A DNA stretch of 64,000 nt from Acidobacteriota bacterium (GCA_965217775.1 CBDCJH010000002.1:928001-992000); one strand, 5' to 3'; numbered from the stretch's first letter, positions 23,067 through 58,029 are shown. Notes: generated by a model from the letters alone, not told the origin. Numbers and translations: made by a program.

Positions 23067-23224
23067 CAGCCCGTGGCAAAAGTCATCACGGCATTCGACC
23101 GTCCCTGCATCCCGGCGGACGGCGTTGCGATTCGGGCACATACTCCCGGTATGCACCCGAATCGCGCCTTGTCCGGCGGGCGCAGGAACGGTCTCGGTGC
23201 TCGCGGGACTTTCACCACGGACTG
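23067..23224 (+). mobile_element. MITE family A, copy 1 (158 bp)
   Basis: TIRs CAGCCCGTGGCAAAAGTC / GACTTTCACCACGGACTG, flanked by a TTAC duplication. Confidence 0.93.
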
Positions 23225-23243
23225 TTACCTCCGAAGGGAGCCA

Positions 23244-24206
23244 TCACCCTTGGTACGGCGAAAGGGTCGGCCAAGCCCCGCGAACGCGGCCGTGGTGGCG
23301 TGTCAGCCGGGGGAAGTCGGGCGAGTTCGGATCCGGCCTCCGAGGCCGTAGATCCGGTCCGAGATAGAGACAGCCGACCTCCTCAGGAGGGAGCTTGCTC
23401 ACGGTCGCTCCGGCCGAATCCACCGCCGCGATCCAGCGCAGCTTCAGCATCCTGAGATCAAGCGGTTCCCTCAAACTGAGGTGATCGAGATCCGTCTGAC
23501 GATAGGCGACGTGCCGTCCCATCTGATCCAGCAGAAACTCCGGCGTGAAGCCGGGGTCTTTGCCGCTGGCCGCCCATACCAGACCGCCGAGCGAAAGATA
23601 CGTGTCGTGCAGGTGCAACACATCCACGAAGTCACGGATCTCACTGCGTCCCGCCAAGGCCAGGACCTTGTTGGTCGCAGCGTCGGCGTCGTGTAGCCGA
23701 TAACCGCAGAGGTCGTCCTTTTGGACCGGAAAAAAGCGGAAGGCGCTGTCGTAGGCCCATTCCATCTTCAGATGCTGATCCGCAATTACTACAATAGCTC
23801 GTTGGAACGTCGGGGTGCGCAGTAACCATGAGAACACGTATCCGGCATGCCGAAGCGATTTAGCATCCGCCGCCGCGCTCTGGGCGATGCTGTCGTCCAG
23901 GTCGTGGAACAGATCGATATCTTCCGAGAAACGTGGCGAATCGGCATCTCGATGTAGCAGTCCGTGGTGAAAGTCCCGCGAGCACCGAGACCGTTCCTGC
24001 GCCCGCCGGACAAGGCGCGATTCGGGTGCATACCGGGAGTATGTGCCCGAATCGCAACGCCGTCCGCCGGGATGCAGGGACGGTCGAATGCCGTGATGAC
24101 TTTTGCCACGGGCTGGTAGGACCGTAGCGCCCGCAACGTAGCTTTCCGGACTGCGATTGGCGGCGATCTGGCGCAGAATTTCGGCTTGTGAAGAGGTTAG
24201 CGGCAT
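23244..24206 (-). CDS. AbiEii/AbiGii-like nucleotidyltransferase carrying an in-frame 54-aa MITE insert
   Basis: Removing the insert gives YVAGATVL|HRDADSPRFSEDIDLF, plus NKVLALAGRSEIRDFVD, which fit type IV toxin NTase motifs. Confidence 0.8.
   Translation of the reverse strand: MPLTSSQAEILRQIAANRSPESYVAGATVLPARGKSHHGIRPSLHPGGRRCDSGTYSRYAPESRLVRRAQERSRCSRDFHHGLLHRDADSPRFSEDIDLFHDLDDSIAQSAAADAKSLRHAGYVFSWLLRTPTFQRAIVVIADQHLKMEWAYDSAFRFFPVQKDDLCGYRLHDADAATNKVLALAGRSEIRDFVDVLHLHDTYLSLGGLVWAASGKDPGFTPEFLLDQMGRHVAYRQTDLDHLSLREPLDLRMLKLRWIAAVDSAGATVSKLPPEEVGCLYLGPDLRPRRPDPNSPDFPRLTRHHGRVRGAWPTLSPYQG
23958..24115 (-). mobile_element. MITE family A, copy 2 (intragenic, in-frame)
   Basis: 158 bp with a CTAC duplication (GTAG on +), giving 162 bp net. 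Confidence 0.95.
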
Positions 24207-24445
24207 AGCTTCGCGGCTAGCAGAAATCCGGAATGGCCGCCGTTCTTTCTCAGACCATCGACAATCATTGGCAGGTCTGCGAGCGTTATTTCCAGGTCAG
24301 CGCGCAGGTACCAGAAACACTGCCCATGGAAACGCCGAAATGCCCACCTCGCGGTGCGCAAACGAGCCTCATCGGTCAGATCGGACGATGTCCCGGATGA
24401 TTGCTCTTGAGGGGAAACGCGCCCTTGCGCCACATCGGTCTGCAT
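24197..24445 (-). CDS. small protein overlapping the NTase start, putative antitoxin/partner
   Basis: 82 aa with FHGQCFWY...LRKNGG. Overlaps the downstream gene by 10 nt. Confidence 0.65.
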   Translation of the reverse strand: MQTDVAQGRVSPQEQSSGTSSDLTDEARLRTARWAFRRFHGQCFWYLRADLEITLADLPMIVDGLRKNGGHSGFLLAAKLCR

Positions 24446-24665
24446 GACGAATCTCCTTCGGGCGTTCGCCCGGTTTCCAACGTTTCTCGAAGTTTACCAG
24501 TCCGCGCCATTTGTCGTAGAGCATCGATATCGGTTGGCCCTGGGGGCCTATGCTGTACGATCCGCGACGCGGAATTCTGATTCGCATGTGAGCGTAACCA
24601 AAACCAGGAAAAAGAAAATCCCAGGATGCCGGGACACCTTCATCTTTCTACAGTAACCTGCACCC

Positions 24666-26213
24666 GTGACCAGACGCCGACTGCCCATCGGCATCCAGAC
24701 CTTCCGCAAGATTCGGGAGCAGGATTTCTACTACGTCGACAAGACGATCCATATTCGCCGGCTCCTCGGCCACGGCACGCACTACTTTCTGTCGCGTCCG
24801 CGGCGTTTCGGAAAAAGCCTGTTCCTCGACACCTTGAAGGAGCTGTTCGAGGGCAACGAGCCGCTGTTCGAGGGCCTCGACATCCACGACGGCTGGAACT
24901 GGTCGGTTCGCCATCCGGTGTTGAATCTGAGTTTCGGCCGCGGCAACAACAAAGAGCCGGGCTACGTCGAGGCGAATCTCATGGAGCAACTTGCCGCCGC
25001 CGAGCGTCGCGCGGGCGTCGTCGCCCACTACGCCACGGCGGCCGGACGTTTCTCCTCCCTGATCGAGGCATTGCATCGACAGACTGGCCATCCGGTGGCG
25101 GTGCTCATCGACGAATATGACAAGCCGATTCTGGATGCTCTGGAGGCGCCGGAGATCGCTCGCGCCAATCGCGACTTTCTGCGCGGCCTCTACGCCGTCG
25201 TCAAGGACAGCGACGCGCACATCCGGTTCAGCTTCATTACCGGAGTGAGCAAGTTCTCCAAGGGTAGCCTCTTCTCCGGCCTCAATAATCTCCAGGACAT
25301 CACTTTGGACCGGCGCTACTCTGCCATCTGTGGCTACACCGAGTCGGATCTGGACATGGTGTTCGCACCGGAACTCCCGGGCCTCGACCGCGATGATATC
25401 CGCGACTGGTACAACGGCTACAGTTGGTTCGGCCAGGAAAGGGTCTACAACCCTTTCGACATCCTCCTGCTCTTCGACAGTCGCAGATTCGGCGCCTACT
25501 GGTTCGAAACCGGCACACCCAAGTTCCTGGTCGACACGCTCTTCAAGCGGCAGGTCAGATCCGTGGCGTTGGATGACATGGTGGGGAGCAGCGATCTGCT
25601 GTCGACCTTCGACGTGGACGAAATGGCAACGGAAGCGCTGCTGTTCCAGACCGGTTACCTCACCATCACGGGGACCGAGGACCTTGGCGGAGAGCTACTC
25701 TATCGGTTGGGCTATCCCAACCGGGAGGTGCGGCAGAGCCTGAACCGAAGCCTGTTGCGCCACTTGGTGCGGGACTCGTCGCGTCAGATGGCCAACAGCG
25801 TCCGCCTGTACCGGCTGTTGGAGGCCAACGACTTCGCCGGACTCGAGACGCTGTTCCATGCCTTCTTCGCCAGCATCCCCTACGATTGGTACACGAACAA
25901 CGACATCGCCAACTATGAGGGCTACTACGCGAGCGTCGTCTACTCCTATTTCGCGGCTCTGGGTCTTGACATTACCGTGGAGGACAGCAGCAGCCACGGG
26001 CTCCTGGACATGGCGGTCCGTTTCAAAGGCAACGTCTACCTGTTGGAGTTCAAGGTGGTCGAGTTCGCCCCGGTGGGCGCCGCGATGGCGCAATTGAAGG
26101 CGAAGCGGTACGCGGACAAGTACCGTGGGTCAGGACAACCGATCTATCTGATCGCCGTGGAGTTCAGCCAGGAGTCCCGCAACCTGGTGGCGTTCGAGGT
26201 GGAGCGCGCTTGA
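24666..26213 (+). CDS. AAA-ATPase-like protein with a C-terminal PD-(D/E)XK nuclease (DUF1703/PDDEXK_9 type)
   Basis: LPIGIQTF, YVDKT, RPRRFGKSL, LIDEYDKP, WYNGY, YPNREV, D...EFK...Q...Y. Confidence 0.9.
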   Translation: MTRRRLPIGIQTFRKIREQDFYYVDKTIHIRRLLGHGTHYFLSRPRRFGKSLFLDTLKELFEGNEPLFEGLDIHDGWNWSVRHPVLNLSFGRGNNKEPGYVEANLMEQLAAAERRAGVVAHYATAAGRFSSLIEALHRQTGHPVAVLIDEYDKPILDALEAPEIARANRDFLRGLYAVVKDSDAHIRFSFITGVSKFSKGSLFSGLNNLQDITLDRRYSAICGYTESDLDMVFAPELPGLDRDDIRDWYNGYSWFGQERVYNPFDILLLFDSRRFGAYWFETGTPKFLVDTLFKRQVRSVALDDMVGSSDLLSTFDVDEMATEALLFQTGYLTITGTEDLGGELLYRLGYPNREVRQSLNRSLLRHLVRDSSRQMANSVRLYRLLEANDFAGLETLFHAFFASIPYDWYTNNDIANYEGYYASVVYSYFAALGLDITVEDSSSHGLLDMAVRFKGNVYLLEFKVVEFAPVGAAMAQLKAKRYADKYRGSGQPIYLIAVEFSQESRNLVAFEVERA

Positions 26214-26372
26214 CAGCCCGTGGCAAAAGTCGTCGCGGCATTCGACCGTCCCTGCATCCCGGCGGACTGTGTTGCGATTCGGCTCACATACTCCCGGTAT
26301 GCTCCCGAATCGCGCCTTGTCCGGCGGGCGCAGGAACGGTCTCGGTGCTCGCGAGACTTTCACCACGGACTG
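26214..26372 (+). mobile_element. MITE family A, copy 3 (159 bp)
   Basis: TTGA duplication that includes the ATPase stop codon. A few substitutions and a 1-bp insertion. Confidence 0.93.
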
Positions 26373-26418
26373 TTGACGGCGCGAGATCCTCCGCGGCGCG
26401 CTGCCAAATGGAGGGAAC

Positions 26419-27000
26419 ATGCCGATCTATGATGAATTCGAAGTGTCCCTGCGTTACATCGAACCACGCATCTGGCGGCGCTTCCAGATCGAGAGAAGAG
26501 CGACCTTCGCCCACCTCCACGTAGCGATTCAAGTCGGCTTCGGCTGGGAGCATGCTCACCTGTGGGAATTTCGCACCCGCGCCCGTCGCGGGCGGGCGCT
26601 GGCAGGCCCGGCGATGGACGACGTCTGGAGCCTGCGCGAACCGCCGCCCGATGCGGAATCGACCAAGCTGGCGGGGTTCTTCGGCCCTCGCAAGCACCGG
26701 AGATGCGTCTATGTGTACGATTTCGGCGACTTCTGGGTCCACGACGTGTTGTTCCGGCGGCGCTTCGCGTCCCAGGCGCGGTTCCATCGACGACTGATCG
26801 CCGGCGAGCGCTCCGGTCCACTGGAAGACTGCGGCGGCGTCCCCGGCTACGAACGGCTTGTTGAGTTCTTGCAGACGGGAGTCGATCCCTGGGAGGAAGA
26901 CCCCGCGGTGCTCAAGGAATGGTACGGCCACTGGGACCCGGAGGCGTTCGACCTCGAAACTGCCAGGATGCGCTTTGTCTGGCCCGGCCGCAGCACCTGA
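26419..27000 (+). CDS. plasmid pRiA4b ORF-3 / IS1096 passenger TnpR-like protein, copy A
   Basis: IEPRIWRRF, LH..IQ..FGW...HLWEF, YVYDFGDFWVH, PLEDCGGVPGY. RBS GGAGG. Confidence 0.9.
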   Translation: MPIYDEFEVSLRYIEPRIWRRFQIERRATFAHLHVAIQVGFGWEHAHLWEFRTRARRGRALAGPAMDDVWSLREPPPDAESTKLAGFFGPRKHRRCVYVYDFGDFWVHDVLFRRRFASQARFHRRLIAGERSGPLEDCGGVPGYERLVEFLQTGVDPWEEDPAVLKEWYGHWDPEAFDLETARMRFVWPGRST

Positions 27001-27164
27001 CGGCAGTCCCGGGAAAGCGCGAGACTGGCGATGGAACTTCTCCGCGGGACCGAGAAGGGGGACAGTCACTTTCTATCCTCGTGACTGCGGTCGTATCATC
27101 CTCCTTCCCCCTTACAATCCTGGGGGCCTATGGTATCAAGTACGGGACAGGCCTTGAGGAGTAA

Positions 27165-27322
27165 CAGTCCGTGGTGAAAGTCCCGCGAGCACCGAGACCG
27201 TTCCTGCGCCCGCCGGACAAGGCGCGATTCGGGAGCATACCGGGAGTATGTGCCCGAATCGCAACGCCGTCCGCCGGGATGCAGGGACGGTCGAATGCCG
27301 TGATGACTTTTGCCACGGGCTG
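27165..27322 (-). mobile_element. MITE family A, copy 4 (158 bp)
   Basis: GTAA duplication on both sides. Confidence 0.93.
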
Positions 27323-27403
27323 GTAAGGAAGCTCTACCGAATATCCCGACCGACGGACTGCTCATCGGCGAGGCCGGTCATTATGGATAAGGAGTCTCCA
27401 GCC

Positions 27404-27637
27404 ATGCAAAAGGTGCTGCACCTGAGAACGACAGTGCTGCCCGGAGGCAAAATTGAAATCGTGGACCGCGAACTTCCGGTGGGTGCGTCCGTTGACGTGG
27501 TCGTCCATCCCTTCTCGGTCTCGGCACAGCGGTCCGCCGTTGACATCCTGGACGAAGCGCCGGGCCGGCGCCTCTTCAAGACCGGAGAGGAGGTGGAGTC
27601 GTATCTGGAGGACGAGCGCGCATCGTGGGACCGCTGA
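27404..27637 (+). CDS. putative antitoxin of a type II TA pair
   Basis: RBS AAGGAG, 77 aa, ends YLEDERASWDR and overlaps the PIN gene. Confidence 0.7.
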   Translation: MQKVLHLRTTVLPGGKIEIVDRELPVGASVDVVVHPFSVSAQRSAVDILDEAPGRRLFKTGEEVESYLEDERASWDR

Positions 27638-28065
27638 CTCTTCCGCCTGACGGGCCAATCTATCTCGATGCCACTGGGTTCATCTATGGCGTGGAGCGCA
27701 TCGAACCCGACCGAGCGTTGCTTGAACCCATGTGGCGGCAGGCTCAGGCTGGGCAGTTCACCATCGTCAGTAGTGACTGGGTAATTCTGGAGACTCTCGT
27801 CAAGCCTCTGCGTGAGGGCGACACGGTTGTCGAGATGCTATTTCGCTCACTACTCGACGCCAATGAGGTGACTCTCATCCCGGCCACCCGCCCACTGTGG
27901 GAAGATGCCGCGCGTCTACGTGCCGAGACGGGCTTGAAGACGCCCGACGCGCTTCACGCGGCTACAGCTCTGTACGCCGAATGTACGCTCTTTGTCACCA
28001 ATGACGCGGACTTTCGACGGTTCGAGGACCTACCTGTCGTTGTCTTGGATGACCTTCTGGAATAA
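27625..28065 (+). CDS. vapC: PIN-domain (VapC-family) toxin
   Basis: IYLDAT, E in helix, LKTPDALHAATA, FVTNDADF. Confidence 0.88.
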   Translation: MGPLTLPPDGPIYLDATGFIYGVERIEPDRALLEPMWRQAQAGQFTIVSSDWVILETLVKPLREGDTVVEMLFRSLLDANEVTLIPATRPLWEDAARLRAETGLKTPDALHAATALYAECTLFVTNDADFRRFEDLPVVVLDDLLE

Positions 28066-28187
28066 GAGGGCCTGTTCGGCGTCCACGTCGGTCACTATCG
28101 CTGCAAATCGAAGCGAAGGGATCCAGGACGGTCGATTCCTGGGACTCCACCGGCACGCGGAATCCATGCTCCCGTCCAGTAGCCGCG

Positions 28188-28787
28188 GTGACCGAGACGT
28201 TGGCGCGCGCCACGTATGATGAATTCGAAGTGTTCCTGCGTTACATCGAACCACGCATCTGGCGGCGCTTCCAGATCGAGAGAAGAGCGACCTTCGCCCA
28301 CCTCCACGTAGCGATGCAAGTCGGCTTCGGCTGGCAGCATGTCCACCTGTGGGAATTTCGCACCAGTGCCCGTCGCGGGCGGGCGCTGGCAGGCCCGGCG
28401 ATGGCCGACGTCTGGAGTCTGTGCGAACCGCCGCCCGATGCGGAATCGACCAAGCTGGCGGGGTTCTTCGGCCCTCGCAAGCACCGGAGATGCGTCTATG
28501 TGTACGATTTCGGCGACTTCTGGGTCCACGACGTGTTGTTCCGGCGGCGCTTCGCGTCCCAGGCGCGGTTCCATCAACGACTGATCGCCGGCGAGCGCTC
28601 CGGTCCACTGGAAGACTGCGGTGGCGTCCCCGGCTACGAACGGCTTGTTGAGTTCTTGCAGACGGGAGTCGATCCCTGGGAGGAAGACCCCGCCGTGCTC
28701 AAGGAATGGTACGGCCACTGGGACCCGGAGGCGTTCGACCTCGAAACTGCCAGGATGCGCTTTGTCTGGCCCGGCCGCAGTACCTGA
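28188..28787 (+). CDS. plasmid pRiA4b ORF-3-like protein, copy B
   Basis: Near-identical to 26419..27000 from YDEF onward, with a different N-terminus and an uncertain start. Confidence 0.8.
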   Translation: MTETLARATYDEFEVFLRYIEPRIWRRFQIERRATFAHLHVAMQVGFGWQHVHLWEFRTSARRGRALAGPAMADVWSLCEPPPDAESTKLAGFFGPRKHRRCVYVYDFGDFWVHDVLFRRRFASQARFHQRLIAGERSGPLEDCGGVPGYERLVEFLQTGVDPWEEDPAVLKEWYGHWDPEAFDLETARMRFVWPGRST

Positions 28788-28893
28788 CGGCAGTCCCGGG
28801 AAAGCGCGAGACCGGCGATGGAACTTCTCCGAAACCGGGCCGGGAAGAACGGCCGCTACTACCTGTGGTTGCGGGTTGCGGGGGAGGATTCCT

Positions 28894-29697
28894 TCACCCT
28901 CGGCTCCGAACACCCTTCCGGTCGTAATCGTTGCAGATGGCCGCGAACAGGCCCGGGATGGTGGACTCCGAGGACTCGACCAACACTTGAAATCCATGCT
29001 CGCGGGCCGTCTCTGCCGTGATGGGGCCGATGGCGGCGCAGGGAACGGACCGGACTCGATCCGGGTCCGTTGCCAAATTCATCAGATGACGAACGGTAGA
29101 GGAACTGGTGAAGGTGATGAGGTCGGGTGCGCCTTGATCAAGAGCCTGCTCCAGTGCCACTCGACTCTCTTCGGGGACCACCGTGTCGTAGACGGGAACC
29201 ACTTCCACCTGAGCGCCGCGTCGGCTCAGTTCCCGGGGCAACAGGGAGCGGGCTTGGCTGGCTCTCGGAATCAGGATGCTCAGACCTTCGATCCGGTTCG
29301 AGTGACGTTCCAGAAACGCCTCCAGCACCCCCTCCGCCTGGTAGCGCGTCGGCACCAGGTGAACCTCCCAGCCGAACTGTTTTACTCGCCGGGCGGTGGC
29401 CGGTCCGATGGTGCAGATTCGAGGGGACGGGCCGTCCTTCTCGGACAAGGATGAGTCCAACGCCCGGGCCCGGGAAAGGAAGATATCGGCGCCGTTGACG
29501 CTGGTGAAGAAGAGCCAGTCGAAACGGTGGGCCCGTGAGATGCACGGATCCAGCTCCTGGTCGGGCCGGGGGACGATCTCGATGGCCGGGATCTCCACCA
29601 CGTCAGCTCCCGCCTGCCGCAGAAGACGGGAGAATTCCCCCACTTGGTTGCGGATCCGGGTCACCAGGATTCTCCGTCTTTCCAGCGGACGGCTCAT
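28894..29697 (-). CDS. hemD: uroporphyrinogen-III synthase
   Basis: ILVTR, FTSVNG, IGPATA, VYDTV, FTSSSTV, IGPITA. The ATG overlaps the hemC stop. Confidence 0.92.
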   Translation of the reverse strand: MSRPLERRRILVTRIRNQVGEFSRLLRQAGADVVEIPAIEIVPRPDQELDPCISRAHRFDWLFFTSVNGADIFLSRARALDSSLSEKDGPSPRICTIGPATARRVKQFGWEVHLVPTRYQAEGVLEAFLERHSNRIEGLSILIPRASQARSLLPRELSRRGAQVEVVPVYDTVVPEESRVALEQALDQGAPDLITFTSSSTVRHLMNLATDPDRVRSVPCAAIGPITAETAREHGFQVLVESSESTIPGLFAAICNDYDRKGVRSRG

Positions 29698-30632
29698 ACC
29701 GGACCCCCTTCCTCCAGTTCCCGAAGGATCTCGTCGCCACCCCGGGAGAGGATGGATTCGGCCGCGTCCAGGGCCATTCGGGGAAGCTCGTCCGTGGATC
29801 CGCGGCTGCGGTGGCGGAGGGAGACAGAGCGGTATGGGCTGGCCAGAAGGGCCTGAAATTGGCCGACGCTGGAGGTGAGGGACGCATATGCTCCCATGGG
29901 GACTTGGCAGCCTCCGCCCATCCGCTCCAGAAACCGGCGTTCGGCGTCGGTGCAAACGCGGGTCTGAGTATGGTCGATGGGAGCCAGCAGCTCCCGAGTC
30001 TGCCGGTCGTCGCACCGGCATTCCACGGCCAGGGCGCCCTGGCCGATGGCGGACAGCATCTGGTCCTGGGAGAAGGTGAAGGCGATCCGGTCTTCCAGAC
30101 CGAGTCGCTTGAGGCCGGCCGCCGCCAGGACGATCCCGTCCAGTTGCTGTTCCTCCATTTTCCGGATTCGGGTCCCCACGTTCCCCCGCAGGGGAACGAT
30201 CTCCACATCGGGCCGCAGGAGCCTCAACTGGACGGTCCGCCGAAGCGAGCTGGTGCCGATCCGGCCGTTTCGTGGGATCTCTTCCGGGCATCCGATCCGG
30301 ACTGACGAGACCAGCGCATCTCTTGGGTCCTCGCGTTCGGGAATGGCGGTCAGGCAGAGCCCTTGAGGCAACTCGGAGGGCAGATCCTTGAGGCTGTGGA
30401 TCGCCAGGTCGATCTCCTCCTTCAGGAGGGCGTCCTCGATCTCCTTGACGAACATCCGCTTCACCGAGAGTCCCGAGAACTGCGGTTCGGGCCGCGGCTG
30501 GTCTCCGCTGGTTCGGATCACCCGGATCTCGGTTTCGACGCCGGGGTGGCGCCCCTCCAGCTCATGGCAGACGATCTCGGCCTGCCGCAGCGCCAGGGGG
30601 CTGCCGCGGGACCCCACGCGGATTCGTCTCAT
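29694..30632 (-). CDS. hemC: hydroxymethylbilane synthase
   Basis: GSRGSPLA, FVKEIE, HSLKD, GTSSLRR, RGNVGTR, GGCQVP. Confidence 0.96.
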   Translation of the reverse strand: MRRIRVGSRGSPLALRQAEIVCHELEGRHPGVETEIRVIRTSGDQPRPEPQFSGLSVKRMFVKEIEDALLKEEIDLAIHSLKDLPSELPQGLCLTAIPEREDPRDALVSSVRIGCPEEIPRNGRIGTSSLRRTVQLRLLRPDVEIVPLRGNVGTRIRKMEEQQLDGIVLAAAGLKRLGLEDRIAFTFSQDQMLSAIGQGALAVECRCDDRQTRELLAPIDHTQTRVCTDAERRFLERMGGGCQVPMGAYASLTSSVGQFQALLASPYRSVSLRHRSRGSTDELPRMALDAAESILSRGGDEILRELEEGGPV

Positions 30633-31894
30633 TCCCCTTTGTCCAGACCGAATGCCTGCTTGATCATCTGAATGTTGTGCAATCGCCGCTGCGGGTCCTG
30701 GGTCGGCGCCTTGATCTCCATGATGATGGGGTGCGCGATCCGGCGGGCCGTCTTGCGAAGAATCGTTTCCATCCTATTGGAGTCGGCGTCGGTCATTCCC
30801 TGGCGGCTCTGTTCCAGTTGAGCCAGGCAGATCTCCTCGATGCGGCCTCGGAGGCCGGCGATGAGCGGTCCCAGGTTCATGGAGGCGATGCGCTGCATGT
30901 GGCGCTCGGATTCCTGCAAGACGATCTCCTCGGCCAACTCGGCCTCGCGCCGGCGTTCCCTCAGATTGGCGCCGATCACCGACTGCAGGTCGTCGATGTC
31001 GTAGAGGAAGACGTTCTCGATCTGGTTCACCCGCGGGTCCACGTTCCTGGGGACCGCGATGTCGATGATGAACAAGGGTGCGTACTTGCGCCGGTGGACC
31101 GCTTCGTTGACGGTTTCAGGTCCCAGGACGTAGGAGTCGGAGCTGGTGGAGACCAGCAGGATGTCCGACTCGGGGAGCCGCTCCTCCAGGTCCCCCATGG
31201 GAATGGACGTCGCGCCGAACAGGGAAGCCAGTTGCCGGGACCGGGCCTGGGTCCGGCTGGCGACGAAGACTCGGGAGACCCCGGAGCGAACCAGGCTGCG
31301 GGTGGCCAGTTCGGCCATCTTGCCCGCCCCCAGGAGAAGAACCGACTTGCCCTTCAGACTCCCGAAGATCTTTCGAGCCAGCTCCACCGCCACGGAGCTC
31401 ACCGAGACCGCGGATTGGGAGATTCCGGTATCGGTCCGGACCCGTTTGGCGACTCGAAACGCCGACGGAAGCAGGGCCTTCAGCGCCGTGCCTGCGGCTC
31501 CCGACTGGCCCGACACGGCGTACGCCTGTTTCAACTGTCCCAGGATCTGGGCCTCTCCCGGAACCATGGAGTCGAGGCTGCTGGCCACCCGGAACACGTG
31601 CACGACCGCATCCTGCTCTCTCAGGGCGTACAGGTAACGTTCCAGCGAATCGGGCTCCAGCGAGTGGTAGCGGTGCAGAAAGTCCTTGAGGCCGTGGATG
31701 GTCTCTTTGTCGTCTCCACCCTGGGCCAGAATCTCGACCCGATTGCAGGTCGACAGGATCATGCTCTCCCGCAACTCGTATTCCCGCCGCAGCGTCGCCA
31801 GGGCGGACGCGACCGCTTCCTCGCGGAAGGCGACCCGTTCCCGAATCTCGATGGGAGCCGTCTTGTGGCTCAGTCCGACCAGCACAGGATGCAT
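30629..31894 (-). CDS. hemA: glutamyl-tRNA reductase
   Basis: HKTAPIEIRE, LSTCNRVE, SLDSMVPGEAQILGQ, GAGKM, DIAVPRN. Confidence 0.96.
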   Translation of the reverse strand: MHPVLVGLSHKTAPIEIRERVAFREEAVASALATLRREYELRESMILSTCNRVEILAQGGDDKETIHGLKDFLHRYHSLEPDSLERYLYALREQDAVVHVFRVASSLDSMVPGEAQILGQLKQAYAVSGQSGAAGTALKALLPSAFRVAKRVRTDTGISQSAVSVSSVAVELARKIFGSLKGKSVLLLGAGKMAELATRSLVRSGVSRVFVASRTQARSRQLASLFGATSIPMGDLEERLPESDILLVSTSSDSYVLGPETVNEAVHRRKYAPLFIIDIAVPRNVDPRVNQIENVFLYDIDDLQSVIGANLRERRREAELAEEIVLQESERHMQRIASMNLGPLIAGLRGRIEEICLAQLEQSRQGMTDADSNRMETILRKTARRIAHPIIMEIKAPTQDPQRRLHNIQMIKQAFGLDKGE

Positions 31895-31941
31895 GTTCGA
31901 GATCTCTCCGCTCCGCTATTGGAGGGGAATCGTGGGGCCAG

Positions 31942-32100
31942 GAGCCTGCGCCGCAGAAATTGATCTACTGCGAAAGTGGTAGAATCGGTCCATATTTCCT
32001 CGATTTCTCGGCGAATAGAACAACTATGCACCTCCAAATCGAGAAAATCTGGCCTCGATTCCCCACTTTCTCGCTACGATCATTTCTACCGCGCAGACTC
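31942..32100. mobile_element. MITE-like family B (159 bp, ~65-bp imperfect inverted arms)
   Basis: GAGCCTGCGCCGCAGAAAT...CTCGATTT versus the reverse complement of the right end, GAGTCTGCGCGGTAGAAAT...CTCGATTT. Flanks are CCAG/CTAG. Confidence 0.7.
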
Positions 32101-32904
32101 CTAGAACTGGTGTAGGCCTCCAAAGTAGCTGGCGCCCAGATAGGTGAACAGCACCCACAGGAATCCGGCCATGCTCACCACCGCGGCTCTCTTTCCTCGC
32201 CACCCCGCCGTCAGCCGCAGGTAGATCAGAGCCAGATAGATGCACCAGGTGACCATGGCGGAGATGACCTTGGGATCCTTGTGCCATCCGTTGATCCAGT
32301 CCTGTTCGGCCCAGACGATCCCGGTCAGGAGCCCGGCGGTCATGAAGCAGAAACCGGCCACCAGGAACTTCAGGAAAAGGTCGTCCAGCGTGGTCAGGGA
32401 AGGGAGCTGGTAGTAGAAGGTCTTGGGTTGCTTGTTCTTGAGCTCCCTTTCCTGGAACACGTAGAGGGCGCCCGCCACGAAGGTGACCAGAAACATGCCG
32501 TAGGCCAGAAACATGAGCGGGGTATGCACGTACAGCCAGGCGCTACGAAGCATGGGCGGTATGGGAGAGGCCTTCAGAAAGACCGTCCCCAACATCAGTG
32601 CCGCCACCGCCGGCAGCAGAAAGGTGCTCAGGGCCCGGATCCGATACCGGACGTAGGAAACGAAAAAGCAAAGGGAGACGGTCCAAGCGAAGAACGCCAA
32701 CGAATCGCGAAGACCGGTGAGTGGAAAGCGTGCCGTCTCCACGGCGGAAGCGATGAGGAATCCGGAATGCAGCCCGAAGCCGATTCCCACCGTAATGACC
32801 GCAATCCGAAAGAGGGCCGTCTTGTTGGAGAAGAAGACCAGCGTGCTGAAGCCGAGTCCGGCCACATAAAATGCAAAAGCGATGTTGAAAAGAAGGCCAC
32901 TCAC
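32101..32904 (-). CDS. ccsA: cytochrome c assembly protein (CcsA/HemX-like)
   Basis: About 8 TM helices, WLYVH, LPSLTTLD, TGIVWA...W.KDPK, GWRGKR. Located upstream of hemA. Confidence 0.85.
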   Translation of the reverse strand: MSGLLFNIAFAFYVAGLGFSTLVFFSNKTALFRIAVITVGIGFGLHSGFLIASAVETARFPLTGLRDSLAFFAWTVSLCFFVSYVRYRIRALSTFLLPAVAALMLGTVFLKASPIPPMLRSAWLYVHTPLMFLAYGMFLVTFVAGALYVFQERELKNKQPKTFYYQLPSLTTLDDLFLKFLVAGFCFMTAGLLTGIVWAEQDWINGWHKDPKVISAMVTWCIYLALIYLRLTAGWRGKRAAVVSMAGFLWVLFTYLGASYFGGLHQF

Positions 32905-33091
32905 AGCGCGCCATTATAGCGGAAGTGGAGGAGTGAGAAGTGAGAGAAGAGGGGGTTTCGGAGACTCTGGGGGCGGTGTGTACATGCAGGGAATATGAGA
33001 CAGAGGAGTGAGAAGACGGGAGGCAGCTCGACGGGACGGAGACGCCGCGATTTCATAGACGCGAAGGCGAAGGATCCCTATTGGCTCCTAG

Positions 33092-33249
33092 CAGCCCGTG
33101 GCAAAAGTCATCACGGCATTCGACCGTCCCTGCATCCCGGCGGACGGCGTTGCGATTCGGGCACATACTCCCGGTATGCACCCGAATCGCGCCTTGTCCG
33201 GCGGGCGCAGGAACGGTCTCGGTGCTCGCGGGACTTTCACCACGGACTG
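33092..33249 (+). mobile_element. MITE family A, copy 5 (158 bp)
   Basis: CTAG duplication, in the divergent ccsA/trpS intergenic region. Confidence 0.95.
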
Positions 33250-33443
33250 CTAGTATCTCAATTGTTAGGTATGAGTGGGTACGGCTCACTGTCAGGCCTG
33301 CTTCGACAGTACCCCTCTCACTCCTCATTCCTCACTCCTCGTTTCTCGCGCGGTTGCGAGACGGGGGAATCTGGTAAAACATGGGCGTCGCTTCCGGCCG
33401 CGGCGGCGGGGAGTCCGGGCGGGTTTACTGGGAGACCGAAATT

Positions 33444-35685: not shown

Positions 35686-35705
35686 GCAACCCTCCAACGG
35701 CCGGG

Positions 35706-35835
35706 GGAGCGGCGGTTTCCAACCGCCGGACAGGAGCGGCGGTTTCCAACCGCCGAACTCCGGACGAGCCATGGAACAATGAGCGTACGTGGGCACGGGG
35801 GCACGGAGGAAGGGGCGACTGGAACTCGCCCCTCC
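35706..35835. repeat. REP cluster (two GGAG-REPs on +, one on -)
   Basis: GGAGCGGCGGTTTCCAACCGCCG twice, then GGGGCGACTGGAACTCGCCCCTCC. Confidence 0.75.
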
Positions 35836-35889
35836 TTTCAAGCTCGGTTCGCGTCAGGCCCTGACGCCGCGTAAGATTCTCAGGTAACG

Positions 35890-36588: not shown

Positions 36589-36671
36589 GAGCCTGCGTCG
36601 CAGAAAAAATGTTTGGGGGAAATTGACCGATTCGAGGCACGAATAGAGAGGAGTAAGAGGAAGCAGGAATC

Positions 36672-37820: not shown

Positions 37821-37842
37821 CCGCTCGGAGTCTGTGCCTTAG

Positions 37843-38000
37843 CAGTCCGTGGTGAAAGTCCCGCGAGCACCGAGACCGTTCCTGCGCCCGCCGGACAAGG
37901 CGCGATTCGGGTGCATACCGGGAGTATGTGCCCGAATCGCAACGCAGTCCGCCGGGATGCAGGGACGGTCGAATGCCGTGGCGACTTTTGCCACGGGCTG
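37843..38000 (-). mobile_element. MITE family A, copy 6 (158 bp)
   Basis: TTAG duplication. Confidence 0.93.
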
Positions 38001-38099
38001 TTAGAAACGGCGCCGGTCCGGCGGCTGTTGCACCGCGTCGTAGTAAACTGGCAGCCGAGTTGACCAGAAAGGTCGTTTCGAACCGAGGATAGAAATCGG

Positions 38100-41775: not shown

Positions 41776-42696
41776 GTGGATTCCGAAGGGAAAGAAAAGA
41801 AACTCTTTCAAGCCCTGGAGCGGTATCGTCGAGTCGTCGTGGCTTTCAGCGGCGGCGTCGACAGCAGTTACCTGGCCTTCTGCGCCCACCGGGTATTGGG
41901 CAACGAATCGCGTGCCGTCACGGCCCTTTCGCCCTCCGTTTCCGGGTACCAGCGCCGGCTGGCTCTGGATTTCGCCCGGCGCTACGAGTTGAATCACACG
42001 CTGATCGAGACTCGGGAGACGGACAATCCCGACTACGCCCGGAATCCCACGAATCGATGCTACTTCTGCAAGGATGAACTCTACGTTCACCTGAAGAGAT
42101 TGGTCCAGGAATGGAATGCGGAAGCGATTCTGGACGGCTCGAACCTGGACGACATCGGCGACTACCGGCCTGGCCGGCGCGCCTCTCGAGAGCAGGGCGT
42201 CCTGAGTCCCTTCATCGACGTGAAGCTGAGCAAGGACGAGATCCGGTCCCTGTCCCTCAAATGGGGTCTCCCCACCTGGGACCTTCCGGCCATGCCCTGT
42301 CTCTCCTCCCGCTTTCCCTACGGTGTCGCCATCACCGAGGAGAAGCTGCAACAGGTCGACGCGGCCGAAGCGTACATCCGGAGCCTGGGGGTGATCAGCT
42401 TCCGGGTGCGTCACCACGAGGAACTGGCTCGGATCGAGGTCGACCGCGCGGAGCGGCACAAGCTGATGGACCCGGATCTCTTCGACGACATCAACCGGAA
42501 GTTCCGCTCCCTCGGATATAGCTATGTCACTCTGGATCTGCAGAGTTTTCGATCCGGCTCCCTGAATCAGGTGGTGAACCTGGAACTTTCTTCCGGACAG
42601 ACCAAGCAGTCTGCGGGGAAAGTCCCACGCAGCACCGAGACCGGGGCTGCGCCCGCCGGACAAGGCGCTCTGAGGAAGCATACCGGGAGTATGTGA
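41776..42696 (+). CDS. larE: ATP-dependent sacrificial sulfur transferase LarE-like, with a MITE-derived C-terminus
   Basis: VAFSGGVDS, RCYFCK, DYRPG, PCLSSRFPYG, RVRHH, VTLDL..FRSGS. Confidence 0.88.
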   Translation: MDSEGKEKKLFQALERYRRVVVAFSGGVDSSYLAFCAHRVLGNESRAVTALSPSVSGYQRRLALDFARRYELNHTLIETRETDNPDYARNPTNRCYFCKDELYVHLKRLVQEWNAEAILDGSNLDDIGDYRPGRRASREQGVLSPFIDVKLSKDEIRSLSLKWGLPTWDLPAMPCLSSRFPYGVAITEEKLQQVDAAEAYIRSLGVISFRVRHHEELARIEVDRAERHKLMDPDLFDDINRKFRSLGYSYVTLDLQSFRSGSLNQVVNLELSSGQTKQSAGKVPRSTETGAAPAGQGALRKHTGSM

Positions 42697-42766
42697 CCGA
42701 GGAGCAACGCGTCTCCGCCGGGATGCAGACCCGGTCGAATGCCGTGATGACTTTTGCCGCGGGCTG
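42607..42766 (-). mobile_element. MITE family A, copy 7 (degenerate, 160 bp)
   Basis: CAGTCTGCGGGGAAAGTC...GACTTTTGCCGCGGGCTG. Flanks are CAAG/CTTG, so there is no direct duplication. Confidence 0.85.
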
Positions 42767-44583: not shown

Positions 44584-44591
44584 ACAGCCGC

Positions 44592-55469: not shown

Positions 55470-55573
55470 GGCAAAGAAATTTTGGTTCCGGCTATTCCGG
55501 AGTGAGGAGTGAGAGAAGACGGGGATCTTGACGACGGAGTGAGTCCAACGCGAAGCCCGGTTCGTCATAGTCT

Positions 55574-57910
55574 TCAATCCCGTCCGTCGACTTCTTCGAA
55601 GTAGTCGGATGCCACCAGAATGTCCCGGGCTTTACTTCCTTCGGGGGGACCGATGATGCCCTCGTGCTCCATGATGTCCAAGAGCCTGGCGGCACGTCCG
55701 TATCCGATTCTGAGCCTTCGCTGCAGGAGGGAAGTGGAAGCCTTGCCGGTCGCCACCGCCAACCGGGCCGCCTCATCGAACAGGCTGTCTTCTGCGGGGG
55801 AGACCCCGCCGACGGCTCCGGGTTCATTCTCCTTCTCGTCGCCGGCGAGGATCTCCTTGCGGTATTCGGGATTGCCCTGGTCCTTGATGAAGGAGGTCAG
55901 GCGGTTGATCTCCTTCACGCTTACCCAGGCCCCGTGGGCCCGAACCAGCCGCGAGGTTCCGGGAGCCAGCACCAGCATGTCTCCCATGCCCAGCAACTGT
56001 TCTGCGCCGTTGCCGTCCAGGATGGTCCTGGAGTCGATCTTGGAGGAGACCCGGAAGGAGATCCGGCTGGGGAAGTTGGCTTTGATCAAGCCGGTGATGA
56101 CGTCCACGGAGGGGCGCTGAGTGGCGAGAATCAGGTGGATCCCAATCGCCCTGGCCATCTGGGCAAGCCGGGTGACGGCGGTTTCCACGTCCTTGCCCGT
56201 GGTGAGCATTAGATCGGCCAGCTCGTCGACGATGACCACGATGTAGGGAAGGGGACCCTCTTTCGACTCGTCCGGATCCTCGGTCACCAGCTCGTTGTAT
56301 TGAGCGATGTTGCGGACACCGGCCCGGGCCAGCGTCCGGTACCGTTGCTCCATCTCCCCCACCGCCCAGTTCAATGCGTTGGCCGCCTGTTTGGGGTCCG
56401 TGACAATGGGTGCCATCAGGTGCGGGATGTCGGCGTACAGTCCCAGCTCGAGCCGTTTCGGATCGATCATGATGAATCGGACTTCATCCGGACCGGCCTT
56501 GTAGAGGATGGAGCAGACGACGCAGTTCAGGGCCACGCTCTTTCCCGATCCGGTGGCCCCGGCGATGAGCAGATGCGGCATTCGCGACAGGTCCGCCACG
56601 TAGTTGGCCCCGTGGATGGTCTTCCCGAGTCCCAGGGCCAGAGGGGACTCCATCTGGTGGAAGCTGCCTGACGAGAGGATCTCTCTCAAATAGATGATCT
56701 GACGATCCAAGTTCGGGACTTCGATGCCGACGGTGTTCTTTCCGGAGATCCGTTCGATCCGGACCGACTCGGCCTTCAGAGCCAGGCAGAGATCGTCCGA
56801 CAGGTTGGTGAGGCGGCTGTACTTGATGCCCGGGTCCGGCTTGAACTCGAAGGTCGTGACCACGGGTCCCGGATGGATCTGCAACACCTGTCCCAAGACC
56901 CCGAACTCGGCACACTTGGTCGCCAGGGCATGGGCTCTTTGAATCAGGTCGGCCTCGTCGACCTCCTGCTTGATCAGGTTCTCTTCCAGGTAATCCAGAG
57001 GAGGGAGTGCGTAGGCGGAAGCCGCGGTCTGCGGCCGCCGGTCGATTCGAGTCGATTCTACGGGAGCCGCCGCCACCGGTACCGCAGCGGGTTCGGCGTC
57101 GGATCCGGGTTCCGGTTCAGCCTCGGGGACGGTGGCCGGAATGGCCTGCGGAACGATCGTCGAGACGGTCTGTGAAACCGTTCGTGGAATGGTCTCCGGG
57201 ATGGTCTCGGGAGGAGGCTCATCCTCGGATTTGACCCCGTCCCAGGTCATCTTCCGGGGCATGGGTTGTGCCACCCGGGATTCCGTCTTCCTGTTCCAGG
57301 TCGCCACTTCCTTTTTCTGGCGCCGTTCTTGAGACCACGCCGAATAGTTTTCCCGGGCGATCCGAAAGAGGTCCCAATTGTGGTTTCCGATCCAGCCCAG
57401 GAACCGGTTCACGGAAAAGGTGGTGCCGGCGACCAGAGACAAAATCAGGACAGTCGCCAGGAGCAGCAGCGCTCCTGGACCGTTCAGCAGGGAGGTCAGG
57501 TATTGCCCCAATATCACTCCCAGGATTCCGCCGGGCGCAAAGTTCACATCCGGACGGACGGGGGGAGGAACGATGGAGAATGCCGCACTCAAGGAGATCA
57601 AGCCGGAGGCAGCGCAAAACAGCTTCAGGAAGGGGTCTTTGAGGCGCCGTCTCCGAAGCCACCGGTATCCCAACAGCAGGAACGGAACGGGCACGCAGAG
57701 GGCCGACCAACCCAGCAGTTGGTAAAGGATGTCCGAACTCAAGGCACCGATCTTGCCCGCCAGATTGGAGTAGATCTGGCTGGACGAGGCGACGCTGAAT
57801 GAAGCGTCGGTGGGATCGTAGCTTACGAGGGACAGGATCAACAGGGCGGAGCCGAAGAGGAGCGAGAGTCCCAACAACTCCGAAACGCGTTGGTAAGCCT
57901 GGATGCTCAT
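55574..57910 (-). CDS. ftsK: DNA translocase FtsK
   Basis: N-terminal TMs, GPVVT.FE, PHLLIAGATGSGKS, DELADLM, ATQRPS, gamma domain LQRRLRIGYGRAAR. Confidence 0.97.
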   Translation of the reverse strand: MSIQAYQRVSELLGLSLLFGSALLILSLVSYDPTDASFSVASSSQIYSNLAGKIGALSSDILYQLLGWSALCVPVPFLLLGYRWLRRRRLKDPFLKLFCAASGLISLSAAFSIVPPPVRPDVNFAPGGILGVILGQYLTSLLNGPGALLLLATVLILSLVAGTTFSVNRFLGWIGNHNWDLFRIARENYSAWSQERRQKKEVATWNRKTESRVAQPMPRKMTWDGVKSEDEPPPETIPETIPRTVSQTVSTIVPQAIPATVPEAEPEPGSDAEPAAVPVAAAPVESTRIDRRPQTAASAYALPPLDYLEENLIKQEVDEADLIQRAHALATKCAEFGVLGQVLQIHPGPVVTTFEFKPDPGIKYSRLTNLSDDLCLALKAESVRIERISGKNTVGIEVPNLDRQIIYLREILSSGSFHQMESPLALGLGKTIHGANYVADLSRMPHLLIAGATGSGKSVALNCVVCSILYKAGPDEVRFIMIDPKRLELGLYADIPHLMAPIVTDPKQAANALNWAVGEMEQRYRTLARAGVRNIAQYNELVTEDPDESKEGPLPYIVVIVDELADLMLTTGKDVETAVTRLAQMARAIGIHLILATQRPSVDVITGLIKANFPSRISFRVSSKIDSRTILDGNGAEQLLGMGDMLVLAPGTSRLVRAHGAWVSVKEINRLTSFIKDQGNPEYRKEILAGDEKENEPGAVGGVSPAEDSLFDEAARLAVATGKASTSLLQRRLRIGYGRAARLLDIMEHEGIIGPPEGSKARDILVASDYFEEVDGRD

Positions 57911-57932
57911 GTCGGCTCCTTCCGAATTCCAG

Positions 57933-58029
57933 CAGTCCGTGGTGAAAGTCCCGCGAGCACCGAGACCGTTCCTACGCCCGCCGGGATGCAGGGACGGTCG
58001 AATGCCGTGACGACTTTTGCCACGGGCCG
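57933..58029 (-). mobile_element. MITE family A, copy 8 (97 bp, internal 61-bp deletion)
   Basis: Both ends retained, central hairpin lost between CCGCCGG direct repeats. Flanks are CCAG/CTAG. Confidence 0.88.

What the first reader, a model, noticed from the sequence alone, without database searches (positions are those of the whole stretch)
23067..58029. A frame-preserving, 'protein-codable' 158-bp MITE family that appears to have spread recently (8 copies in 35 kb)
Seen: 8 copies at 23067, 23958, 26214, 27165, 33092, 37843, 42607 and 57933. They share 18-bp imperfect TIRs (CAGCCCGTGGCAAAAGTC / CAGTCCGTGGTGAAAGTC) and a central hairpin (GCGATTCGGG..CATAC-TCCCG-GTATG..CCCGAATCGC). Six have exact 4-bp target duplications (TTAC, CTAC, TTGA, GTAA, CTAG, TTAG). 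Element plus duplication is 162 bp, exactly 54 codons, and by manual translation the intact element is stop-free in 5 of 6 frames. Most insertions into a gene would therefore add a peptide rather than break the frame. Established: Rickettsia palindromic elements are the precedent for repeats inserting in-frame in proteins, and 4-bp TA-centred targets are typical of IS5-like DDE elements. Inference: this is a non-autonomous element mobilised in trans (no transposase in the window) whose length and codon openness may be selected, making it a source of peptide insertions.
Basis: partly seen in the sequence, partly recalled or inferred. Interest (0 to 1): 0.85.

Follow-up and report, generated by a model that had tools for sequence, protein, structure and literature searches.

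The report
Ordinary MITE family in uncultured Acidobacteriota
The repeats are real copies of a small, transposase-less mobile element that is abundant throughout this bacterium's genus and still moving, but its ability to be read through as protein looks like a by-product rather than a selected feature.

Summary
All 8 copies lie at the stated coordinates, with the stated inverted ends and six exact 4-bp duplications. The element is a MITE. The genome holds 267 loci, 204 of them full length; 149 of 204 have exact 4-bp TA-centred duplications and 46 are identical to the window copy. An IS1182/IS5-like insertion sequence elsewhere in the genome has the same 16-bp ends and makes the same 4-bp duplication. 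One copy has an intact 452-aa transposase. All 8 other species of the genus that were searched carry the element; none of 6 in the sister genus does. Public-run contigs hold precise empty alleles for 4 window copies.

The coding claim is only formally true. 158+4 = 162 bp, and 5 of 6 frames are open in the master copy. But only 17 of 204 copies lie in coding-like ORFs, against about 55% expected from target usage, and 11 of those 17 read through, which equals the neutral expectation of about 65%. Stop-creating mutations are not depleted. A few real genes carry the 54-aa insert, and one of these is decaying. Eight copies in 35 kb is not a significant cluster. Verdict: a new member of a known kind, of modest interest.

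The parts
23067..23224 (+). MITE copy, 158 bp, the master sequence. TTAC duplication. Intergenic.
   Evidence: Contigs of public runs X1, X5 and X6 join 23047/23048 to 23225 with 4-5 other letters between, an empty allele.
23958..24115 (-). MITE copy, 158 bp, 100% identical to the master. GTAG duplication on the + strand. Intergenic.
   Evidence: Public-run contigs skip 23954->24118 (163 nt with 1 letter between, net 162) in X1, X5 and X6.
26214..26372 (+). MITE copy, 159 bp, 95% identical. Its TTGA duplication holds the TGA stop codon of the upstream gene 24666-26213 (AAA-ATPase_like + PDDEXK_9).
   Evidence: Public-run contigs skip 26209->26373 (163 nt) in X1, X5 and X6.
27165..27322 (-). 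MITE copy, 158 bp, 99.4% identical. GTAA duplication. Intergenic.
33092..33249 (+). MITE copy, 158 bp, 100% identical. CTAG duplication. Intergenic.
37843..38000 (-). MITE copy, 158 bp, 98.1% identical. TTAG duplication. Starts 22 bp after gene 36696-37820.
   Evidence: Public-run contigs skip 37839->38002 (162 nt) in X1, X5 and X6.
42607..42766 (-). Old, diverged MITE copy, 160 bp, 84% identical, no duplication left. The last ~30 codons of the predicted gene 41776-42696 run into it.
57933..58027 (-). Short derivative of the MITE (element positions 3-55 joined to 107-158). It belongs to a 97-bp sub-family with 4 copies in the genome.

Best explanation
[quoted passage not shown] It encodes no transposase. 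It is moved in trans by the DDE transposase of an IS1182/IS5-like insertion sequence that lies elsewhere in the genome.

Shown: the IS has the same 16-bp termini (CAGCCCGTGGCAAAAG) and makes the same 4-bp duplication.

Inferred: the transposase binds the shared ends and inserts the element at TA-centred tetranucleotides (TTAA, CTAG, YTAR-like, TCAA/TTGA).

In this 62% GC genome such sites are rare inside genes and common between genes and at stop codons. As a result about 92% of copies are intergenic and many sit exactly on a stop codon, which the duplication regenerates.

The family is old enough to be in every species of the genus that was searched, and it is still active: there are many identical copies and empty alleles in natural populations.

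The element with its duplication is 54 codons, and most of its frames lack stops. This is real, and it lets the occasional intragenic copy be read through as a 54-aa insert. The evidence points to an incidental property of a GC-rich, TA-poor palindrome rather than a selected one.
For: Copy number and duplications:
- 267 loci, 204 full length; 149 of 204 have an exact 4-bp duplication. The commonest are TTAA 25, CTAG 19, ATAT 13, TCAA 13 and CTAC 12. 46 copies are 100% identical to the master.
- TTAA-flanked insertions number 25, in a genome with only 1390 TTAA sites. For CTAG the figures are 19 and 1723.

Parent IS:
- Two identical 1475-bp copies at C2:310455-311929 and 316892-318366 have 16-bp ends identical to the MITE's left end. 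One is flanked by a CTAG duplication.
- A third, full-length copy at C2:2325898-2327373 (84% nt identity) has a TCAA duplication and an uninterrupted 452-aa ORF. One of its ends shares 20 nt with the MITE consensus end.
- That protein's best NCBIfam match is IS1182 (E 3.5e-50). In Pfam it matches DUF772 (60.1 bits, cut-off 23.1) and DDE_Tnp_1_6 (26.7 bits, cut-off 25.1).
- Full-length homologues without stops (81-97% aa identity) occur in G001, G002, G005 and G007. At E <= 1e-80, 6 of the 8 other species of the genus have a match.

Mobility:
- Contigs of three public runs join precisely across 4 of the 6 copies in window 22000-39000, lacking the element plus one duplication (net 162 or 163 nt).
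- Orthologous genes in sister species lack exactly 162 nt or 54 aa.

Location:
- 17 of 204 copies are in coding-like ORFs, against 64% of 2000 random positions and 54.5% expected from target usage. In other genomes of the genus the figure is 5 of 72.
- At 32 of 193 sides that face a gene's 3' end, the element starts directly after the stop codon.
- There is no orientation bias relative to neighbouring genes: 55 against 55, and 19 against 18 at stop codons.

Codability looks neutral:
- 11 of 17 intragenic copies read through, against 64.5% of all frames open across the family.
- The pooled private-mutation test shows no deficit of stop-creating changes (P 0.18-0.51).
- A 97-bp derivative also transposed.

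Structure: the element folds as one long hairpin, -96.4 kcal/mol.
Against: - No transposition assay exists. The link between this transposase and the MITE rests on shared ends and the shared duplication type.
- Beyond the 16-20 terminal bases the MITE does not resemble the IS, so it is not a simple deletion derivative of the copies seen here.
- The two IS copies with the best-matching ends have the C-terminal DDE part in another frame.
- Two species, G006 and G008, carry many MITE copies but gave no transposase match at E <= 1e-80.
- The transposase scores below NCBIfam's curated cut-off for IS1182 (171 against 270 bits).
- Openness of the master copy is somewhat unusual: 5 or more open frames occur in 17 of 5000 mononucleotide shuffles, 106 of 5000 dinucleotide shuffles and 16 of 1839 intergenic windows.
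- A first private-mutation test on G000 alone gave a marginal deficit of + strand stops (3 observed, 8.0 expected, one-sided P 0.035).
- My gene calls come from a crude home-made coding-potential score that flags only 64% of random positions in a genome that is about 84% coding. Intragenic counts are therefore underestimates, by about a quarter.
Confidence: 0.88

Rival explanations
1. Codable MITE under selection, like the Rickettsia palindromic elements (RPE). On this reading the 3n length and stop-free frames are maintained because they let the element survive inside genes, which makes it a regular source of 54-aa peptide insertions.
For: - 162 bp = 54 codons, and 5 of 6 frames are open in the master copy. 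All three + strand frames are open in 191-198 of 204 copies.
- Dinucleotide shuffles reach 5 or more open frames in only 106 of 5000.
- 11 read-through intragenic copies occur in G000.
- Real genes with the insert, whose orthologues have empty sites, include an OMP_b-brl_4 barrel protein, an AlbA_2/HATPase_c_4/HTH protein and a sulfatase.
- 46 database proteins contain the frame-B peptide, 13 of them with Pfam domains. These include a full-length 708-aa sulfatase.
- The first private-mutation test gave P 0.035.
Against: - Intragenic copies are about 6-fold depleted rather than tolerated: 8% observed against 54.5% expected.
- The read-through fraction, 11 of 17, equals the neutral expectation.
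- The majority-rule consensus of the family has only 4 open frames.
- The pooled mutation test is null.
- 30% of full-length copies are 159-162 bp, and a 97-bp derivative spread.
- The sulfatase carrying the insert has lost its N-terminal 133 residues, including the catalytic region, in G000. In G006 it is frameshifted and truncated. The allele without the insert in G007 is intact at 745 aa.
- Of the 8 domain-bearing database hits I examined, 6 are terminal ORF extensions into an element at a gene end, not internal inserts.
Confidence: 0.08
2. Host-recruited structural repeat, like REP, ERIC or Correia elements. On this reading the long hairpin placed just after stop codons serves as a transcript-end stabiliser or terminator, and this use explains the abundance and conservation. 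This is compatible with a MITE origin.
For: - The whole element folds into one hairpin of -96.4 kcal/mol.
- 68 of 193 sides facing a gene's 3' end lie within -4 to +30 bp of the gene end, and 32 start directly after the stop codon.
- 100% identical copies occur in four other species (G001, G003, G006, G007).
- Contigs of an RNA library contain the element in several flanks, although DNA carry-over is not excluded.
Against: - Placement at stop codons follows from the TA-centred target preference alone.
- There is no orientation bias.
- The central-stem variants are not compensatory.
- Copies are polymorphic between strains.
- There is no Rfam match.
- No expression or termination data were obtained.
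Confidence: 0.1

Closest known systems
Bacterial MITEs derived from IS5-superfamily elements, for example the Neisseria Correia element and IS1106/IS5-related MITEs (mentioned in PMC11602168, passages read). The Correia comparison is from my own recall.
   Same: It is small (about 100-200 bp) with terminal inverted repeats and a TA-containing duplication. It has hundreds of copies, is mostly intergenic, forms a long hairpin and has no transposase gene. PMC11602168 (passage read) reports 90.4% of bacterial MITEs as intergenic; here the figure is about 92%.
   Different: The sequence, the host (uncultured Acidobacteriota MAGs) and the partner IS differ. The partner's best match is IS1182, below the cut-off. 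The duplication is 4 bp, with TTAA and CTAG preferred.
Rickettsia palindromic elements (RPE). Ogata et al. 2000 and 2002, as summarised in PMC10969869 (passages read).
   Same: It is a palindromic repeat of about 150 bp that can be translated and is found in frame inside otherwise conserved genes, with orthologues that lack it.
   Different: The review gives nearly half of RPEs as lying inside ORFs. Here only 17 of 204 copies are intragenic and 11 are read through. This element has clear inverted ends, duplications and a candidate transposase, and no sign of selection for coding.
Coxiella QMITE1/QMITE2 (PMC5896051, abstract and passages read) and intragenic ERIC elements (Delihas 2007, seen only as a reference in PMC10969869).
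   Same: These are MITEs that overlap ORFs and give peptide fusions. In Coxiella, an IS110-family element (IS1111) uses the palindrome of QMITE2 as its insertion target. Here all 4 copies of an IS110-family element sit at one point in the MITE's central hairpin.
   Different: The sequences, duplication lengths and hosts are unrelated.
IS1182 family / IS5 family insertion sequences (NCBIfam NF033551, NF033581). Family properties such as 4-bp YTAR/CTAG targets of IS5-group elements are from my own recall.
   Same: The partner IS is 1475 bp with one long ORF of about 452 aa. The protein has an N-terminal DUF772 domain and a C-terminal DDE_Tnp_1_6 domain. The IS has 16-bp inverted ends and a 4-bp TA-centred duplication.
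   Different: It scores below the curated cut-offs of both models (171 of 270 bits and 80 of 140 bits). It is therefore a distant member, or a sister group, of the described families.

Membership tests
MITE (miniature inverted-repeat transposable element) | Small size, with no room for a transposase gene | tested here: met
   Copies are 158 bp (142 of 267 loci), 159 bp (33) or 160 bp (15). The only ORFs are the read-through frames of about 52 aa.
MITE (miniature inverted-repeat transposable element) | Terminal inverted repeats | tested here: met
   The ends are CAGCCCGTGGCAAAAGTC and CAGTCCGTGGTGAAAGTC, matching at 15 of 18 positions. The termini are conserved at 90% or more across the 204 copies.
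MITE (miniature inverted-repeat transposable element) | Target-site duplication of fixed length that differs between copies | tested here: met
   149 of 204 copies have an exact 4-bp duplication, of 24 different sequences. None has an exact 5-bp or 6-bp one. In other genomes of the genus the figure is 40 of 72.
MITE (miniature inverted-repeat transposable element) | Many dispersed copies, and evidence of insertion (filled and empty sites) | tested here: met
   There are 267 loci over both contigs. Empty alleles occur in public-run contigs for 4 window copies. Empty orthologous sites occur in G007, G006, G001 and G005.
MITE (miniature inverted-repeat transposable element) | An autonomous element with matching ends that could supply the transposase | tested here: met
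   1475-bp IS copies share the 16-bp ends and the 4-bp duplication, and one has an intact 452-aa ORF. Actual mobilisation was not tested.
IS1182 family (the partner IS) | The transposase reaches the curated score of NCBIfam NF033551 | tested here: not met
   It is the best-scoring family, but at 171.3 bits against a cut-off of 270. The IS5_4 model gives 80.1 bits against 140.
IS5/IS1182 superfamily DDE transposase | A DUF772 (InsH-type N-terminal) domain plus a DDE_Tnp_1-type catalytic domain | tested here: met
   DUF772 scores 60.1 bits (cut-off 23.1) and DDE_Tnp_1_6 scores 26.7 bits (cut-off 25.1). DDE_Tnp_1 scores 22.3 bits, just under its cut-off of 23. The catalytic residues were not mapped.
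RPE-like protein-coding palindromic element | A large share of copies inserted in frame within protein-coding genes | tested here: not met
   17 of 204 copies are intragenic and 11 read through. In other genomes 5 of 72 are intragenic and 3 are in frame.
RPE-like protein-coding palindromic element | The encoded peptide is conserved by selection | tested here: not met
   Stop-creating private mutations show no deficit in the pooled test. The read-through fraction equals the neutral expectation. This is a weak test, with 59-116 mutations.
Any Rfam RNA family | A match at the gathering score | tested here: not met
   There were 0 matches in the whole window.

The most novel reading that the evidence does not exclude
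The family is an RPE-like case outside Rickettsia. On this reading the master copy's 3n length and its stop-free + strand are kept by selection at the level of the element lineage, because in-frame copies are less harmful. The 54-aa inserts seen in an outer-membrane barrel protein, an AlbA_2/HATPase_c_4 regulator, a sulfatase and other proteins would then be tolerated or functional additions to the proteome of these Acidobacteriota. The only RNA libraries that held part of the stretch were labelled sponge metagenome.
Probability: 0.08. Interest if true: 0.6.

Novelty: new member of a known kind. Interest (0 to 1): 0.3.

Why it matters
It documents a very active MITE and its parent IS in an uncultured Acidobacteriota genus. 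There are about 200 full copies per genome, the family is found across the genus, and it is polymorphic in natural populations. That makes it useful as a strain marker and as a caution for annotating these MAGs: gene callers extend ORFs through the element, and 46 database 'proteins' contain its peptide.

It also gives a clean negative example. A repeat can be frame-preserving and stop-free, and can even be found in frame inside conserved genes, without any detectable selection for that property. The strong depletion inside genes shows that such inserts are mostly not tolerated.

The side observation has more practical interest. An IS110-family, presumably RNA-guided, recombinase lands only in this MITE's hairpin, which supplies a natural target-and-guide pair.

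Tried and rejected
- **Parent of the MITE.** I first took the four 1.67-1.75-kb 'split' MITE copies for the autonomous parent. They are an IS110-family element inserted into the MITE.
- **Palindrome-preserving shuffle.** The two halves align only with gaps (43% ungapped identity), so this null is not meaningful and I do not use it.
- **Simulation of all differences from the consensus.** It gave an apparent excess of open + frames. Shared sub-family variants were counted as independent mutations, so I rejected it in favour of the private-mutation tests.
- **Covariation in the central hairpin.** The variants are not compensatory, so I make no structural claim from it.
- **Searches with no hit.** Rfam gave no match. 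The element gave no match in IMG/VR viral contigs (exact 29-nt pattern), in PLSDB plasmids or in INPHARED phages (blastn).
- **Literature.** Searches for MITE + Acidobacteria, MITE + in-frame + IS1182 and IS1182 family + target site duplication + MITE found no description of this element. ISfinder cannot be queried here. The MITE sequence catalogue of PMC11602168 is in supplementary files that are closed, so I cannot exclude that the family is listed there.
- **Peptide search.** Only one of the five open frames (frame B) was searched against proteins.
- **RNA-library contigs (X10).** They contain the element, but this does not show transcription.
- **Habitat.** The runs labelled 'sponge metagenome' held only small shares of the stretch (0.17-0.18). 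Short pieces of X10 lay at 97-99% identity. I do not treat the habitat as established.
- **Not run.** Structure prediction, complex prediction, the protein-atlas search and the search of protein representatives.

Full report
**Observation.** The window is G000:C2:928001-992000, in a 6.43-Mb, 62% GC genome of two contigs. blastn of window 23067-23224 against this genome finds the eight copies at exactly the coordinates given. Six are 158-159 bp and 95-100% identical. One is old (42607, 160 bp, 84%). One is a 95-bp internal-deletion form (57933). The inverted ends can be read directly, and the six 4-bp duplications are exact.

**Genome-wide picture.** The genome holds 267 loci. 204 are full length and 63 are partial. 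Of the full-length copies, 149 have an exact 4-bp duplication, while none has an exact 5-bp or 6-bp one. 46 are identical to the master and the rest range down to 74% identity. The commonest lengths are 158 bp (142 loci), 159 bp (33) and 160 bp (15). Duplications are TA-centred: TTAA 25, CTAG 19, ATAT 13, TCAA 13, CTAC 12 and so on. The genome has only 1390 TTAA and 1723 CTAG sites, so these targets are strongly preferred.

The window holds the densest 35-kb stretch of the genome, with 8 copies. Random placement of the 262 loci on contig C2 gives a maximum of 8 or more in 250 of 2000 trials. There is therefore no local burst. The window is simply the top of an even, genome-wide distribution.

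**What moves it.** A scan for the terminal 30 nt found two 1475-bp units bounded by the MITE's left-end sequence in inverted orientation. They are identical to each other and carry 16-bp ends, CAGCCCGTGGCAAAAG. One is flanked by CTAG on both sides. They encode an IS1182/IS5-like transposase whose C-terminal DDE part is in another frame.

A third full-length copy at C2:2325898-2327373 is 84% identical in DNA. It has a TCAA duplication and an uninterrupted 452-aa ORF. Its best NCBIfam match is IS1182, at E 3.5e-50 and 171 bits, below the cut-off of 270. In Pfam it passes DUF772 and DDE_Tnp_1_6. One of its ends shares 20 nt with the MITE consensus end.

Full-length homologues without stops (81-97% identity) occur in G001, G002, G005 and G007. 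At E <= 1e-80, 6 of the 8 other species of the genus have a match. G006 and G008, which do carry the MITE, gave none at that threshold. The sister genus has 63-64% identical homologues but no MITE. Beyond its ends the MITE does not resemble the IS, as is common for MITEs.

Shared ends and a shared duplication type are shown. Trans-mobilisation is inferred.

**Distribution and activity.**
- The element is found in all 8 other species of the genus that were searched, with 64-228 first-look candidates each.
- It was not found in 0 of 6 genomes of the sister genus, nor in 0 of 16 genomes from other families of the order.
All are from MAGs labelled Acidobacteriota or 'Candidatus Aminicenantes', plus one 3.9-Mb 'MAG: bacterium'. 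That genome has one full and two partial copies.
- Copies 100% identical to the master occur in four other species: G001, G003, G006 and G007.
- I laid the contigs of three DNA-type public runs on window 22000-39000. Contigs join precisely across copies 23958, 26214 and 37843, with net 162, 163 and 162 nt missing. They also join across 23067, with a small difference in the flanking GT-rich tract. Up to 255 nt lie on each side of the joint.

The family is therefore old, genus-wide, and polymorphic today.

**Is it 'protein-codable' by selection?**

The formal properties hold for the master copy: 162 bp with its duplication, and 5 of 6 frames open. Five or more open frames occur in:
- 17 of 5000 mononucleotide shuffles;
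- 106 of 5000 dinucleotide shuffles;
- 1045 of 20000 random genomic 158-bp windows;
- 16 of 1839 intergenic windows.

The property is unusual but not extreme, and it was noticed post hoc. Across the family, 73 of 204 copies have 5 open frames and the majority consensus has 4.

Next I excised each copy plus one duplication in silico. I asked whether a coding-like ORF (my own codon-score model) spans the empty site with at least 150 nt on both sides. This holds for 17 of 204 copies (8.3%), against 64% of 2000 random positions. Weighting coding and non-coding occurrences of each tetranucleotide by its use as a target predicts 54.5%. The depletion also holds within target classes: 2 of 25 TTAA insertions and 0 of 19 CTAG insertions are intragenic, where about 28% is expected. 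In loci from other genomes of the genus, 5 of 72 copies are intragenic. Insertions in genes are therefore mostly not retained, codable or not.

Of the 17 intragenic copies, 11 (65%) are read through. The share of open frames over all copies is 789 of 1224 (64.5%). This is exactly what random frame and orientation would give.

I then tested private substitutions that create a + strand stop. In G000 alone there were 3, against 8.0 expected (P 0.035). After pooling 190 copies from all genomes the counts were 2 against 3.4, 4 against 6.7 and 7 against 7.6 (P 0.18-0.51).

A 97-bp deletion derivative (101 bp with its duplication, not 3n) has four copies with their own duplications. I conclude that codability is incidental.

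**Where the copies sit.** Of 193 element sides that face a gene's 3' end, 32 start directly after the stop codon. Of 215 sides that face a 5' end, only 5 lie within 4 bp. The duplication then contains the stop (xTAA, xTAG, xTGA), as at window 26214, where TTGA holds the TGA of gene 24666-26213. This follows from the target preference and leaves the protein unchanged. There is no orientation bias. The element folds into one long hairpin of -96.4 kcal/mol. Its central-stem variants are not compensatory.

**In-frame inserts in real genes.** Pfam supports several of the 11 read-through ORFs:
- an OMP_b-brl_4 barrel protein, insert at residues 666-719;
- a sulfatase, insert at 339-392;
- an AlbA_2/HATPase_c_4/HTH protein, insert at 311-364, between domains;
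- a TPR protein.

Orthologues show the matching empty sites:
- The G007 sulfatase lacks exactly 162 nt and is open for 745 aa.
- The G006 AlbA_2 protein is contiguous across the site and has the same extent.
- The G001 and G005 barrel proteins are 54 aa shorter at that point and align to the end.

Being read through is not proof of tolerance. The G000 sulfatase lacks the first 133 residues of a full-length relative, including the catalytic region. The G006 copy, filled at the same site, is frameshifted and truncated. A 708-aa database protein with the same insert is complete.

A search with the frame-B peptide found 46 predicted proteins, 13 of them with Pfam domains. Of the 8 I examined, 2 have internal inserts and 6 are N- or C-terminal ORF extensions into an element at a gene end.

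**Comparison with known systems.** In-frame MITE fusions are described for RPEs, intragenic ERIC elements, Anabaena MITEs and Coxiella QMITE1 (PMC10969869 and PMC5896051, passages read). About 90% of bacterial MITEs are intergenic (PMC11602168, passage read), which matches the value here. This element meets every defining feature of a MITE. It fails the two features that set RPEs apart. It is a new family of a known kind.

Three literature searches found no description of it. The element was not found in viral contigs, plasmids or phages.

**Verdict.** The interesting part, selection for frame preservation and codon openness, is not supported. Interest 0.3.

Noticed in passing
G000:C2:3134809-3136482 (L003), and also C2:1656568-1658241, 5760147-5761892 and 6039542-6041287; outside the window: An IS110-family element of about 1.52 kb has exactly 4 copies in the genome. 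Its 317-aa protein matches NCBIfam NF033542 'IS110 family RNA-guided transposase' (E 2.9e-64). All 4 copies sit at the same point and in the same orientation in the central hairpin of one MITE sub-family, between ...cccggtatgc and tccctcatcgcg.... The MITE thus serves as its only landing site here, as QMITE2 does for IS1111 in Coxiella. Two of the copies carry an extra 72-74-bp repeat of the element's first bases.
   Followed up: partly
window 31928-32100: A second short repeat family of about 170 bp lies here. It gives 79 blastn hits genome-wide, about 48 of them near full length. Public-run contigs skip 31927->32101 (173 nt), which suggests another polymorphic MITE. This bin also had by far the highest summed contig depth.
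   Followed up: partly
window 12334-12801: A tandem array of a 52-bp unit, seven overlapping 156-nt copies at 94-97% identity in the core. The stretch gave 11 megablast hits in the genome. Not examined further.
   Followed up: no
window 26419-27000 and 28188-28787: Two paralogous PRiA4_ORF3-like genes (Pfam PF07929) share a 300-nt stretch at 97% identity (26428-26727 and 28215-28514). MITE copies flank them.
   Followed up: partly
G000:C2:310455-311929 and 316892-318366 (L001, L002): Two 100% identical copies of the IS1182/IS5-like IS lie 6.4 kb apart. Both have the C-terminal DDE segment in a different frame from the rest of the transposase. One has mismatched flanks (TTAG and CTAG). They may form a composite unit, or the difference may come from recombination between copies.
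   Followed up: partly
G031:C1:3901880-3929334 (the genome of L057): A 3.9-Mb genome labelled only 'MAG: bacterium' holds one full copy (91%) and two partial copies of the MITE within about 28 kb near one end of its contig. The genus members hold dozens each. This could be horizontal transfer or a mis-binned segment.
   Followed up: no
window 41776-42696 (+): The predicted gene, which has weak Asn_synthase/NAD_synthase-like matches, ends inside the old MITE copy 42607-42766. Its last ~30 codons are therefore element-derived, a C-terminal fusion rather than an internal insert.
   Followed up: no
runs X10 and X13; X10 pieces on window 26623-39000: The only RNA libraries that hold parts of this stretch are labelled sponge metagenome or metatranscriptome. 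Short X10 contigs match at about 97-99%. This hints that the genus is sponge-associated, but the shares are small and I did not verify it.
   Followed up: no
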